44,690 bases of DNA from a virus: the UHGV virus genome UHGV-0128395. The stretch is one strand, 5' to 3'. Positions 18,901 to 21,900 of the stretch are shown here, piece by piece. How positions within the stretch are numbered: the first letter of the stretch is position 1; each line of letters begins with the position of its first letter. Made by a program: the position numbers.

Positions 18901-21900
18901 GGCTAAGTTTCGGCCTTGCCATGGAAGCGTTAAAACAGGGCAAAAGTTTGCAGCGGGCAGGATGGAATGGGAAAGATCAGTTTGTTTATCTCGTGAAAGG
19001 AGAAAAATTAGCGTCTGCGTTGGGTTATGGCTTTGGCGAATATGTTGGCGAGCCAACTTTCAATGACACGCTTGTATTGAAAAACTCACAGAACCGCCTT
19101 GCTACATGGGCTCCATCCATTGGCGACCTGATGGCTGAAGACTGGCAAATCATTTAACCATGTAGGCATTACAAAGCCTATACCTTAATGATCACGATAT
19201 TGAAGTAATGGACCGCCAAACGAAGAGAGATATCCTATCACATAACAAATCGTTGCAGGAGAACTGCAAATTATAAATTAGCGAAGATCATGCAATGGAA
19301 AAAAATGAATGTTCGAACTGATAAAGAATTAATGTCTTCAGTTAAGAAAGAGGACGTTTCTCATTTAAAGAAAATTAAGCGATGCAATGAGTACCATTTC
19401 AAAAAGCCGGGTGTTAAACCCGACCTGAATAATCATTCCAGCGGTTCTACTGGATCTGTCTTTGCTCGTGATGCGAATTGAATGAGCGCCAAAAGAGCCG
19501 AACGCATTTTTACATACTCTCTGCTTTTTACAACCTCTGACATATGCTCAGTGACATTAATATTGGCTGAGCAATACCCTTCCTTTGTTGGAACCGATAT
19601 TTCCACTTTCATACCTTGATCTATCAGGCCACCCAAAATTCGCAGAGGCTCTGGTTCGATCAAAGCAGATACGCGGTTTTTGTCTACGGGTTGAAAGCAG
19701 AGTGATGATCCATCATAACGGATTAGAACTCCACTCCGATCAGGACGCATCTCTGGTCCTATATCCAGAATTCGCCATCCGCAATACCAAGTGCGGCAAA
19801 CAGAAGGGCGTTCATCATAAATTGCACATCCTCCCTGATGTTTAAGGTGCTGGCATGGGATGTCAGCCAACTTTTTTAACGTTGGCTGTTCAATTCGTAG
19901 CGAAGTGCAGCACACAGAGCATGAACCGCACTTTCTGTTTTTGATTAGTAATTTTTCTAAACTCATTGGGCATCTCCCAAAGGTAATTAAATGGCACTCA
20001 CCGACAAGCAAGAAATGTTCTGTCGCGAGTACCTCATCGATTTAAACGCCACGCAAGCGGCTATTCGGGCGGGGTACAGCGCAAAAACAGCCAACCGTAC
20101 TGCGTCCGAAAACATGTCAAAACCTGACATACAACTCAGAATCGCCGAACTGAAAGCACAACGCAATGATCTTGTTGGTATTAATGCAGAATATGTACTT
20201 AATCGCCTTATTGAAATCGACCAGATGGATGTGCTTGACATTCTCCTGCAAAACGGTGAGCTAAAACCCATTAAAGACTGGCCTAAGGTATGGCGCACAA
20301 CGTTATCAGGAATGGATGTCGTGGAGATGGCATCCGCAGATAGCGCCGCACTCCTGAAGAAAATCAAATGGCCTGATAAGGTTAAAAACCTCGAACTTCT
20401 TGGTAAGCATGTTTCTGTTCAGGCGTTTAAAGAACAAGCTTCTCACGAACTAACAGGCAAAGACGGCGGCGCAATCCAGATTGAAACATCACCGATGAGC
20501 ACTCTATTCGGAAAATGACCTCGATTAATCCTATCTTTGAACCGTTCATTGAGGCGCATCGCTACAAAGTCGCCAAAGGCGGTCGAGGTAGCGGTAAATC
20601 ATGGGCAATTGCGAGACTGCTTGTTGAAGCGGCGCGTCGGCAGCCTGTGCGTATTCTCTGCGCTCGTGAACTGCAAAACAGTATCAGCGATTCGGTAATC
20701 CGGCTGCTTGAAGACACCATCGAGCGTGAAGGATATTCGGCTGAGTTTGAAATTCAGCGTTCAATGATTCGTCATCTCGGAACGAATGCTGAATTCATGT
20801 TCTACGGCATAAAAAACAACCCGACGAAGATTAAATCGCTCGAAGGCATTGATATCTGCTGGGTGGAAGAAGCGGAAGCGGTAACGAAGGAATCATGGGA
20901 TATCCTGATCCCAACCATCCGTAAGCCGTTCTCTGAAATATGGGTGAGCTTTAACCCGAAGAACATCCTCGACGATACCTATCAGCGATTCGTCGTAAAT
21001 CCTCCCGATGATATTTGCCTGCTGACGGTGAACTACACCGACAACCCGCACTTTCCTGAAGTTCTCCGTCTGGAGATGGAAGAGTGCAAACGCAGAAATC
21101 CGACACTGTATCGTCACATCTGGCTTGGTGAGCCAGTAAGCGCAAGTGATATGGCAATCATCAAACGTGAATGGCTTGAAGCCGCAACCGATGCGCACAA
21201 GAAACTCGGATGGAAAGCGAAAGGCGCTGTTGTCTCTGCGCATGACCCGTCAGATACAGGACCGGATGCTAAAGGTTATGCATCGCGCCACGGTTCGGTA
21301 GTTAAGCGCATTGCCGAAGGTCTGCTGATGGACATCAATGAAGGTGCTGACTGGGCAACTTCGCTGGCGATTGAAGACGGCGCTGACCACTACTTGTGGG
21401 ATGGCGATGGCGTTGGTGCAGGGCTACGCAGACAGACAACGGAAGCATTCTCCGGTAAGAAAATCACCGCTACGATGTTCAAGGGCAGCGAATCGCCATT
21501 TGATGAAGATGCACCATATCAGGCCGGAGCATGGGCTGATGAAGTCGTGCAGGGCGACAACGTTCGCACTATTGGCGATGTATTCCGCAATAAGCGAGCG
21601 CAATTCTATTACGCGCTGGCTGACAGGCTGTATCTGACATATCGGGCGGTTGTCCACGGTGAGTATGCAGACCCCGACGACATGCTGAGTTTCGACAAAG
21701 AAGCGATAGGCGAGAAGATGCTGGAGAAGCTGTTTGCAGAACTGACGCAGATTCAGCGCAAATTCAATAATAACGGGAAGCTGGAGCTTATGACTAAGGT
21801 CGAAATGAAGCAGAAGCTCGGTATTCCATCTCCTAACCTGGCTGATGCGCTGATGATGTGTATGCATTGCCCGGAGTCGGCTGCGCAACCCGACTATTCC

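What the first reader, a model, noticed from the sequence alone, without database searches (positions are those of the whole stretch)
19433..19966. CxxCxxCC metal-binding protein on the opposite strand between lysis and packaging genes
The motif CGSCSVCC...GGCAIYDERPSVCRTWYCGW is the hallmark of YkgJ-type putative Fe-S/Zn proteins, which is unexpected in a phage late region. Its opposite orientation and own flanking terminators argue for an independently expressed moron.
Basis: partly seen in the sequence, partly recalled or inferred. Interest (0 to 1): 0.55.

Follow-up and report, generated by a model that had tools for sequence, protein, structure and literature searches.

The report
Cysteine-cluster moron gene in a prophage
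A rare, well-conserved gene for a small cysteine-rich metal-binding protein sits backwards between the lysis and DNA-packaging genes of a P22-like E. coli prophage.

Summary
The ORF is real. It spans 19433-19966 on the minus strand and encodes 177 aa, with a GGGAG ribosome-binding site 7 nt upstream and a hairpin terminator just after the stop. dN/dS against homologues is 0.09-0.12.

Eight cysteines are conserved across 52 homologues. The N-terminal ~65 residues are homologous to E. coli YkgJ (PF03692) only at superfamily level: the Pfam score is 21.1 bits against a cut-off of 23, and hhalign gives 87% probability. The C-terminal α/β domain has no annotated or solved structural relative.

The window is a P22-like E. 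coli prophage. Only 5 of 5426 complete E. coli genomes carry the gene.

In several unrelated lambdoid phages, homologues down to 39% identity are the lone antisense gene between the lysis cassette and the terminase. That is the slot P22 uses for pid.

In many of those phages the gene carries a conserved promoter/dyad module (ACTGATC-N4-RTCAGGAT). The same module also drives RexAB and a defence-type kinase. The window copy has lost this module; its start codon lies 24 bp from the small terminase (TerS) start codon.

Verdict: a genuine moron encoding a probable two-metal-site protein. Its function is unproven, and its expression in this prophage is uncertain. Interest is moderate.

The parts
19433..19966 (-). 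CDS for a 177-aa YkgJ-superfamily cysteine-cluster protein. Residues ~10-65 form the 8-Cys domain, residues 74-76 are the conserved RPD linker, and residues ~80-177 form an α/β domain.
   Evidence: ORF. PGAP annotation WP_001525208.1. 52-sequence alignment with conserved Cys. dN/dS 0.09-0.12. AF2 pLDDT 91.
19974..19978 (-). Shine-Dalgarno sequence GGGAG, 7 nt upstream of the ATG. Cassette homology to other phages ends at about 19976.
   Evidence: Sequence. Homology break points.
19400..19426 (-). Intrinsic-terminator-like hairpin (AGGUCGGGU/ACCCGGCUU stem, 5-nt loop) followed by a U-run, starting 7 nt after the stop codon.
   Evidence: Folding gave -15.4 kcal/mol, z -2.2. Hairpins at the same position have different stem sequences in L061/L063, L068 and L141. 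The consensus scanner did not list it.
19169..19270 (+). Remnant of the C-terminus of a foreign spanin/lipoprotein gene. It travels with the cassette as a recombination scar.
   Evidence: tblastn of the L061/L063 lipoprotein gave 65-68% identity, E 1e-12 to 1e-13. DNA homology runs 19976-19181.
19989..20072 (.). 5' end of the TerS gene, which forms the upstream region of the minus-strand gene. It is 94% identical to the block that makes up part of the pid 5'UTR in P22/BTP1.
   Evidence: The pid transcription start site is 174 nt upstream of the pid ATG (PMC8835761).
20094..20120 (-). Only promoter-like sequence seen by eye upstream of the gene: TTGACA, 15 nt, TACGGT, inside TerS. This is speculative.
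   Evidence: Read from the sequence. It fails the scanner's spacing and -10 criteria. Inference only.
18678..19157 (+). Upstream neighbour on the late strand: a DUF2829/Tad2-like protein of 159 aa.
   Evidence: PF11195 E 2.4e-21. phrog_872 E 2e-68. PGAP annotation.
19991..20518 (+). Downstream neighbour on the late strand: small terminase (Terminase_2). Its ATG lies 24 bp from the ATG of the minus-strand gene.
   Evidence: PF03592 E 3e-39. PGAP annotation.

Best explanation
The feature is a horizontally mobile accessory gene (a moron) carried by a P22-like E. coli prophage in the cargo slot between the lysis cassette and the terminase, on the strand opposite the late operon.

Its product is a two-domain protein:
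- An N-terminal CxxCxxCC (YkgJ-superfamily) domain whose eight conserved cysteines most likely form two metal sites. C13/C16/C19 plus one distal Cys would make a [4Fe-4S]-type site, and C20 plus three distal Cys a second Zn or Fe site. This follows what has been described for the characterised relatives FliB and DpdM.
- A fast-evolving C-terminal α/β domain that probably selects the target.

The most likely mode of action is that the protein is made in the lysogen or carrier cell from its own promoter. It would then act as a metal-cluster enzyme, with FliB/DpdM-like group (methyl) transfer as the leading guess, on a host or incoming-phage macromolecule. The benefit would be to the lysogen, plausibly protection against other phages.

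Shown: the gene is real and under purifying selection; the domain homology; the conserved slot and orientation; the 3' hairpin; and, in relatives, a shared promoter module with known defence cargo.

Inferred: metal content, enzymatic chemistry, target, phenotype, and whether this promoter-less copy is expressed at all.
For: Gene reality
- Intact ORF with RBS.
- dN/dS 0.09-0.12.
- 100% identical in five E. coli genomes from humans, marsupials and chickens.

Domain homology
- Pfam PF03692 E 5e-4, with 20 of 52 family members hitting it.
- hhalign against a YkgJ alignment gives 86.9%, E 4e-6, and aligns C13/16/19/20, C38, C47 and C57.
- Eight conserved Cys plus K32, Y50, R53, Y61, W64, R65, R74 and D76.
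- FliB binds an essential [4Fe-4S] cluster through its Cys motif (PMC8598068).
- DpdM, described as a YkgJ homologue, is a validated phage preQ1 methyltransferase with two predicted Cys metal pockets.

Moron status
- Only 5 of 5426 E. coli genomes have the gene, while about 200 share the adjacent TerS 5' end.
- Cassette homology 19976-19181 is embedded in otherwise unrelated phages.
- It is the lone antisense gene between lysis and HNH/terminase genes in Rahnella and other enteric prophages, at 57%, 51% and 39% identity and with different lysis and terminase types.
- The 3' hairpin is conserved with different stems.
- A conserved upstream dyad/promoter module precedes homologues. The same module precedes RexA/RexB and a PD-T4-6/Stk-like kinase.
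- P22 pid is an experimentally transcribed antisense moron at the same position.
Against: - There is no experimental datum for this subfamily.
- No hits in PADLOC or NCBIfam.
- The Cys spacing (CxxCxxCC) differs from FliB (CX4CX3CC) and DpdM (CxxxCxxCC), and no SAM-binding signature was identified.
- The window copy lacks the family's native promoter module and has no consensus promoter.
- C-terminal-only products are on record (P0012, P0015, P0017), and an indel-bearing copy exists (L073), which suggests decay in some lineages.
- Most family members are in alphaproteobacterial MAG contigs with no conserved neighbouring genes (prophage status not examined); one lineage sits in an operon with a hydantoinase A/B enzyme. 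The fold is therefore not intrinsically a phage or defence function.
Confidence: 0.55

Rival explanations
1. The window copy is a silent or decaying passenger. A recombination event fused the gene's RBS to the TerS start region and removed its promoter, so in this prophage the ORF is not expressed to a useful level and is on its way to becoming a pseudogene.
For: - Homology to the 90-92% identical copies stops 10 nt upstream of the ATG. About 800 bp present in L059, including the dyad/promoter module, is absent here.
- There are zero matches to the module in the window.
- No consensus promoter was found.
- L073 carries two 1-nt deletions.
- Gene calls covering only the C-terminal 105-111 residues (P0012, P0015, P0017) exist; P0012 is recorded on 11 contigs.
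Against: - The ORF, RBS and terminator are intact and 100% identical in five genomes from different hosts.
- The L073 indels lie in CC runs and may be assembly errors.
- P22 pid, in the same arrangement, is transcribed from a weak promoter about 180 nt upstream.
- A TTGACA-N15-TACGGT sequence lies at 20120-20094.
Confidence: 0.25
2. It is an anti-defence (counter-immunity) factor used by the phage itself. It would be made early after DNA entry from its own promoter and would inactivate a host immune pathway, like its neighbour, the Tad2-like protein.
For: - It is adjacent to a DUF2829/Tad2-like gene.
- It is a small, sporadically distributed, fast-evolving single gene with a variable C-terminal domain.
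- Tandem paralogue arrays occur in some genomes (L024 has 4 copies).
- N-domain relatives occur in lytic T4-like cyanophages.
Against: - Its orientation is antisense to the late operon.
- The only recognisable cargo found behind the same promoter module are defence systems, RexAB and a PD-T4-6/Stk-like kinase.
- Many homologues lie in variable alphaproteobacterial MAG contexts (no shared neighbours; prophage status not checked), one lineage beside metabolic genes.
Confidence: 0.12
3. It is a small metal-cluster accessory or redox subunit with a metabolic or housekeeping-type role, for example a partner of ATP-dependent hydantoinase/carboxylase-type enzymes, that phages have merely picked up.
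For: In one alphaproteobacterial lineage the gene overlaps the stop of a fused hydantoinase A/B gene by 4 nt. It lies downstream of a TPP enzyme and a CoA-transferase.
Against: - That context is confined to one lineage whose neighbours are about 91% identical.
- No neighbour family is shared across 53 genome loci.
- The phage copies have no such partner.
Confidence: 0.08

Closest known systems
E. coli YkgJ / Pfam PF03692 (CxxCxxCC, 'putative zinc- or iron-chelating domain', UPF0153)
   Same: It shares the N-terminal CxxCxxCC motif and the C-x-I-Y-x-x-R-P-x-x-C-R core. hhalign gives 86.9% probability and E 4e-6 over 53 columns. PGAP uses the YkgJ family name for it.
   Different: - It scores below Pfam's gathering cut-off (21.1 vs 23 bits).
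- It lacks YkgJ's ~25-residue insertion after the motif.
- It has its own conserved WYCGWR and RPDRSG motifs and an extra ~95-residue C-terminal domain.
- YkgJ is a chromosomal core-type gene, whereas this is phage cargo.
- YkgJ's own function is unknown.
FliB, the flagellin lysine N-methyltransferase of Salmonella (PMC8598068)
   Same: It has a cysteine-rich N-terminal motif of the same general type and eight conserved cysteines. FliB provides the experimental precedent that such a motif holds an essential, oxygen-sensitive [4Fe-4S] cluster.
   Different: FliB's motif is CX4CX3CC. No FliB-related family appeared among the profile hits for the window protein. There is no flagellar context here.
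DpdM (DUF3109), the phage dPreQ1 methyltransferase (PMC10516641)
   Same: It is phage-encoded, described as a YkgJ homologue, and has two predicted Cys metal pockets in which the fourth Cys of the motif joins three distal Cys.
   Different: The motif is CxxxCxxCC. DpdM always co-occurs with the DpdA/preQ1 pathway genes, which are absent from this window. There was no DUF3109 hit at E < 0.01.
P22/BTP1 pid moron
   Same: It occupies the same slot and orientation in the same phage group, antisense between the lysis/rha genes and the packaging genes. The sequence just upstream is the same TerS 5' block at 94% identity. It has its own Rho-independent terminator, a weak promoter and a long 5'UTR.
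   Different: Pid is an unrelated ORFan protein that derepresses the host dgo operon. Its promoter lies in sequence that is not conserved in the window.
Lambda bor and other lambdoid morons (own knowledge: Barondess & Beckwith 1990; Juhala et al. 2000)
   Same: Each is a gene with its own transcription signals, inserted in or beside the late operon — bor antisense just downstream of Rz — and expressed from the prophage.
   Different: Bor is an outer-membrane lipoprotein. This comparison rests on recalled literature, not on a test run here.

Membership tests
Pfam PF03692 CxxCxxCC (YkgJ family) | HMM score at or above the curated gathering cut-off (23 bits) | tested here: not met
   21.1 bits, E 5.3e-4, profile positions 1-68 of 85. 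20 of 52 homologues hit at E < 0.01, with best E-value 2e-4. E. coli YkgJ itself scores 44.6 bits.
Pfam PF03692 CxxCxxCC (YkgJ family) | N-terminal C-x2-C-x2-C-C motif | tested here: met
   C13-x2-C16-x2-C19-C20, at least 90% conserved across 52 homologues.
Pfam PF03692 CxxCxxCC (YkgJ family) | Further conserved cysteines (eight in all) and the C-x-I-Y-x-x-R-P-x-x-C-R core | tested here: met
   C38, C47, C57 and C62 are invariant. G46-C47-A-I-Y50-x-x-R53-P54-x-x-C57-R is conserved. It aligns to YkgJ C58, C71 and C81.
Pfam PF03692 CxxCxxCC (YkgJ family) | Profile-profile homology to bona fide YkgJ proteins | tested here: met
   hhalign of A1 against A4 gave 86.9% probability and E 4.1e-6 over 53 columns. 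With the single YkgJ sequence it was only 46.7% over 16 columns. Membership therefore holds at superfamily level, as a distinct subfamily.
Pfam PF03692 CxxCxxCC (YkgJ family) | Metal (Fe-S or Zn) binding | not testable with these tools
   Needs purified protein (UV-vis, EPR, ICP-MS).
Phage moron (independently transcribed cargo gene) | Sporadic presence within otherwise conserved phage backbones | tested here: met
   5 of 5426 E. coli genomes carry the gene, while 202 match the adjacent TerS 5' end. The cassette is embedded in phages with different terminases and lysis cassettes.
Phage moron (independently transcribed cargo gene) | Own terminator | tested here: met
   Hairpin plus U-run at 19426-19400. 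Its position is conserved with different stems in homologues.
Phage moron (independently transcribed cargo gene) | Own promoter | tested here: inconclusive
   Homologues carry a conserved dyad plus a -35/-10-like module. The window copy lacks it and has no consensus promoter. Only a weak TTGACA-N15-TACGGT candidate lies inside TerS.
Phage moron (independently transcribed cargo gene) | Expression from the prophage | not testable with these tools
   Needs strand-specific RNA-seq or a reporter in a lysogen.
FliB/DpdM-type Fe-S methyltransferases | Cys-motif spacing and sequence family (FliB CX4CX3CC; DpdM CxxxCxxCC/DUF3109) | tested here: not met
   The motif here is CxxCxxCC. No DUF3109 or other family appeared at E < 0.01. 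The resemblance is at the level of 'works like', not membership.
FliB/DpdM-type Fe-S methyltransferases | Methyl-transfer activity, and a substrate pathway in the neighbourhood (flagellin, or DpdA/preQ1 genes) | tested here: not met
   No flagellar or 7-deazaguanine genes are present in the prophage. Activity itself is not testable here.
Known anti-phage defence systems (PADLOC-DB v2) | HMM match to a catalogued defence protein | tested here: not met
   No PADLOC hit for the window protein or for the L079 homologue.

The most novel reading that the evidence does not exclude
The two-domain YkgJ-like proteins may be a new single-gene, Fe-S-dependent prophage function, either a defence or a host-modifying enzyme. 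It would belong to a previously undescribed 'moron regulon' of enterobacterial temperate phages, in which diverse cargo (RexAB, Stk/PD-T4-6-type kinases, this protein, many ORFans) is driven by one portable promoter module controlled through the 15-bp dyad CTGAT-N5-ATCAG.
Probability: 0.2. Interest if true: 0.75.

Novelty: new variant of a known kind. Interest (0 to 1): 0.42.

Why it matters
- The CxxCxxCC/YkgJ superfamily is large and almost entirely uncharacterised. Its only two studied members, FliB and DpdM, are unusual metal-dependent methyltransferases.
- A phage-borne subfamily under strong purifying selection, with its own extra domain and sitting in a defined cargo slot, offers a tractable entry point. 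It is a single gene, easily cloned and easily tested against phage panels.
- The portable promoter/dyad module found while tracing its relatives could be used to locate prophage cargo genes, including new defence or counter-defence genes, directly from sequence.
- For this particular window the practical message is more modest. The gene is genuine and already annotated, but it may be transcriptionally orphaned.

Tried and rejected
Database and structure searches
- PADLOC and NCBIfam gave no hits. PHROGs gave only an unknown-function family over the N-domain.
- That nuclease idea was rejected because the C-domain has no conserved acidic or lysine catalytic residues; only G130 is near-invariant.
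- BFVD returned only uncharacterised viral proteins. The afdb50 library was unavailable.

Neighbourhood and context
- A search for conserved neighbours across 53 genome loci found none.
- The hydantoinase operon looked promising but is confined to one lineage.
- The frequently adjacent GT2-like (485 aa) and ~197-aa genes are absent from the window.

Identity of the upstream dyad
- LexA (needs CTG-N10-CAG), FNR (TTGAT-N4-ATCAA), CRP, the marbox and the PhoB/PhoP boxes were considered. All were rejected by eye on spacing or sequence. IHF (WATCAR-N4-TTR) fits many copies but does not explain the conserved left arm.
- Rfam found no family for the element or its 5'UTR hairpin.

Other points
- L073's frameshifts were considered as evidence of pseudogenisation, but they lie in CC runs and may be sequencing errors.
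- Two of my regular expressions for the dyad were mis-spaced and returned only background. They were corrected.
- Literature searches found no paper on this subfamily or on the promoter module.
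Full report
**What is at the coordinates**

The window carries a 177-codon ORF on the minus strand from 19966 (ATG) to 19433 (TGA). GGGAG lies 7 nt upstream of the ATG.

Both quoted motifs are present. The flanking genes on the plus strand are:
- holin, lysozyme and Rz;
- a DUF2829/Tad2-like protein (18678-19157);
- then small terminase (19991-20518, Terminase_2), large terminase and portal.

The whole window is a P22-like prophage, 100% identical over the queried stretch (19200-20100) to a prophage in E. coli SCU-124 and three other complete genomes (99.9% in a fifth). There, PGAP already calls this product 'YkgJ family cysteine cluster protein'.

**Is it a real gene?**

Yes. Pairwise dN/dS against homologues with 69-92% nucleotide identity is 0.09-0.12. 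A search of 5.8 billion proteins found 57 relatives. A profile search of 1.84 billion cluster representatives found 248 full-length-type relatives at E < 1e-30 and about 5000 at E < 1e-10.

In a 52-sequence alignment, C13, C16, C19, C20, C38, C47, C57 and C62 are invariant or nearly so. The same holds for K32, G46, Y50, R53, P54, Y61, G63, W64, R65, R74, P75 and D76. Past residue 80 only G130 is nearly invariant.

AlphaFold2 with this alignment gives a confident model (pLDDT 91, pTM 0.86). It has a Cys-rich N-terminal part and an α/β C-terminal domain.

**Family membership**

Against Pfam the protein hits only PF03692 (CxxCxxCC), at 21.1 bits. That is below the curated 23-bit cut-off. 20 of 52 relatives also hit it weakly, whereas E. 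coli YkgJ scores 44.6 bits.

Profile-profile comparison with an alignment of YkgJ proteins gives 86.9% probability and E 4e-6 over 53 columns. It pairs the CxxCxxCC motif and three further cysteines.

The N-domain is therefore a YkgJ-superfamily domain, but the protein belongs to a distinct two-domain subfamily.

No solved structure resembles it:
- PDB sequence search: nothing;
- Foldseek against the PDB: best E 0.33;

In the viral structure library only uncharacterised phage proteins match. PADLOC and NCBIfam have no model for it. PHROGs has an unknown-function family covering the N-domain.

**What is known about the superfamily**

Two members have been studied.
- FliB of Salmonella holds an oxygen-sensitive [4Fe-4S] cluster on its CX4CX3CC motif, and the cluster is essential for flagellin lysine methylation (PMC8598068).
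- DpdM (DUF3109), described by its authors as a YkgJ homologue, is a phage enzyme that methylates dPreQ1 in DNA. It is predicted to have two Cys metal pockets, with the last Cys of the motif joining three distal cysteines (PMC10516641).

By analogy, the eight cysteines here would form two sites. This is inference. The motif spacing differs, and neither a flagellar nor a 7-deazaguanine context exists in this prophage.

**Genomic behaviour: a moron in a conserved slot**

Only 5 of 5426 complete E. coli genomes contain any DNA-level homologue, although 202 share the neighbouring TerS 5' end. No isolated phage genome in the phage collection has a close relative; only cyanophage and Rhizobium-phage N-domain proteins appear.

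In IMG/VR contigs and in Rahnella and other enteric genomes, homologues at 39-95% identity are nearly always the single gene of opposite orientation between the lysis cassette and the HNH/terminase genes. The lysis genes differ between these phages (GH19, GH108 or lysozyme types), and so do the terminases: HK97-like, lambda GpA/Nu1-like or Terminase_2. In one phage (L079) the gene sits antisense between tail genes M and L instead.

DNA homology between the window and these phages runs from 19976 to about 19181. That stretch covers the RBS, the gene, the 3' intergenic region, and a 34-codon remnant of a foreign spanin/lipoprotein gene at 19169-19270.

A stem-loop with a U-run follows the stop codon at 19426-19400. 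Relatives keep a hairpin at the same place with unrelated stem sequences.

**The 5' side is different**

The gene's ATG is 24 bp from the TerS ATG, and no consensus promoter is found upstream.

In many other phages the homologue is preceded, 77-117 nt upstream, by a conserved module:
- an element CTG-N9-CAGG(A/G)T, typically ACTGATC-N4-(A/G)TCAGGAT;
- then a -35-like GTTGCA/GTTACT;
- then a TAnnnT -10-like hexamer about 23 nt further on.

The module is often placed right after a hairpin that would terminate the opposite strand. The window has no copy of this element. Compared with the 92%-identical L059 copy, about 800 bp, including the module and another antisense ORF, is missing.

The window gene is thus a derived, promoter-less version fused to the TerS start region.

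That same TerS 5' block (19989-20072) is 94% identical to a block just upstream of pid in P22 and BTP1. There, pid is an antisense moron at the equivalent position. Published work shows pid is transcribed from a weak promoter with a start site 174 nt upstream of its ATG, and that its Rho-independent terminator stabilises the mRNA (PMC8835761). The pid promoter itself lies outside the conserved block, so it cannot simply be transferred to the window. A TTGACA-N15-TACGGT sequence at 20120-20094 is the only candidate I could see, and it is speculative.

**The shared module points to lysogen cargo**

In L079 the same element also precedes a RexA/RexB pair (PADLOC E 1e-106 and 1e-52).

Of these, 103 have an AT-rich spacer and many share flanks.

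The first ORFs downstream fall into about 37 unrelated families. They include:
- the YkgJ-like protein (12 distinct sequences);
- RexA;
- a PD-T4-6/Stk-type protein kinase (PADLOC E 1e-34 to 1e-42);
- DUF1883;
- a ClpP-like protein;
- many small ORFans.

About 260 chance matches to the bare pattern would be expected in a collection of this size (my estimate). The evidence is therefore the shared flanking architecture, not the count. The binding factor is unidentified, and Rfam has no family for the element.

**Outside phages**

Most full-length relatives in species-representative genomes are alphaproteobacterial MAGs. No neighbour family is shared among 53 loci. Some loci carry tandem paralogues; L024 has four.

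One lineage has the gene overlapping the end of a fused hydantoinase A/B gene, downstream of a TPP enzyme and a CoA-transferase. The neighbours there are about 91% identical to each other, so this counts as one observation.

The fold is therefore not restricted to phage biology.

**Interpretation**

The best-supported reading is a mobile cargo gene encoding a probable two-metal-site protein. In its native form it is transcribed on its own, from a promoter type shared with prophage defence genes.

The biochemical guess is FliB/DpdM-like group transfer, with the variable C-domain choosing the target. The biological guess is a benefit to the lysogen, possibly anti-phage. Both remain inferences.

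For this particular copy, the main rival is that it is transcriptionally orphaned. An anti-defence role and a metabolic accessory role are less likely but not excluded.

- The motif and the superfamily call hold.
- The surprise value is lower than claimed.
- The 'flanking terminators' reduce to one 3' terminator.
- The 'independently expressed moron' idea holds for the family but is unproven here.

Noticed in passing
L059 7914, L060 7914, L068 7912, L076 1108, L077 7907, L079 1251 and 6523, L080 1124, L083 7889, L084 7211, L089 7893, L143 ~1057; L146-L265 (absent from the window): A portable promoter module of enterobacterial temperate phages. It consists of an opposite-strand terminator hairpin, then ACTGATC-N4-(A/G)TCAGGAT (dyad CTG-N9-CAG), then a -35-like GTTGCA/GTTACT, then TAnnnT. 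It precedes about 37 unrelated cargo families, including RexAB and a PD-T4-6/Stk-like kinase. The half-site resembles LexA's TACTGTA, but the spacing is one base shorter. The binding factor is unknown and no Rfam family matches.
   Followed up: partly
window 18678-19157 (+): The gene just upstream on the late strand encodes a DUF2829/Tad2-like protein (PF11195 E 2e-21; phrog_872). It is a candidate anti-Thoeris sponge homologue sitting in the same cargo slot.
   Followed up: no
window 19989-20072; L266 (BTP1) 2501-2585: The first ~85 nt of the Terminase_2-type TerS gene are 94% identical to a block immediately upstream of pid in P22/BTP1, phages whose own TerS is different. P22's pid 5'UTR therefore contains a relic of a foreign small-terminase gene. 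Antisense genes repeatedly abut this TerS start codon: here, the 212-aa ORF in L059, and pid.
   Followed up: partly
window 19169-19270 (+): A 34-codon remnant of the C-terminus of a spanin/lipoprotein from a different (GH19-type) lysis cassette. It is a recombination scar showing where the cassette came from.
   Followed up: yes
L024 8001-10258; also L093, L097, L098: Tandem arrays of two to four diverged paralogues of the YkgJ-like gene in alphaproteobacterial or viral contigs, suggesting diversification of the C-terminal domain.
   Followed up: no
L136 2405-6552, L139 2402-6540, L045: In one alphaproteobacterial lineage the homologue overlaps the stop of a 1200-aa fused hydantoinase A/B gene by 4 nt. 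It lies in an apparent operon with a TPP enzyme and a family III CoA-transferase.
   Followed up: partly
L077 7280-7873 and 8646-10103; L141 4790-6840; L143 439-1095 and 1826-3283: In many lambdoid phages the YkgJ-like gene is sandwiched between two late-strand genes of unknown role: a ~485-aa protein with a weak GT2-like N-terminus, and a ~197-aa protein. Both are absent from the window.
   Followed up: partly
L059 7196-7834 (+), L060 7377-7847 (+): Additional antisense ORFs (212 and 156 aa, with no Pfam or PADLOC hit) lie between TerS and the YkgJ-like gene in the phages carrying the closest homologues. They may be further cargo genes.
   Followed up: no
window 16600-17200: A very AT-rich stretch (GC 26-33%) lies between the antiterminator gene and the holin. 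This is presumably the late promoter/qut region.
   Followed up: no
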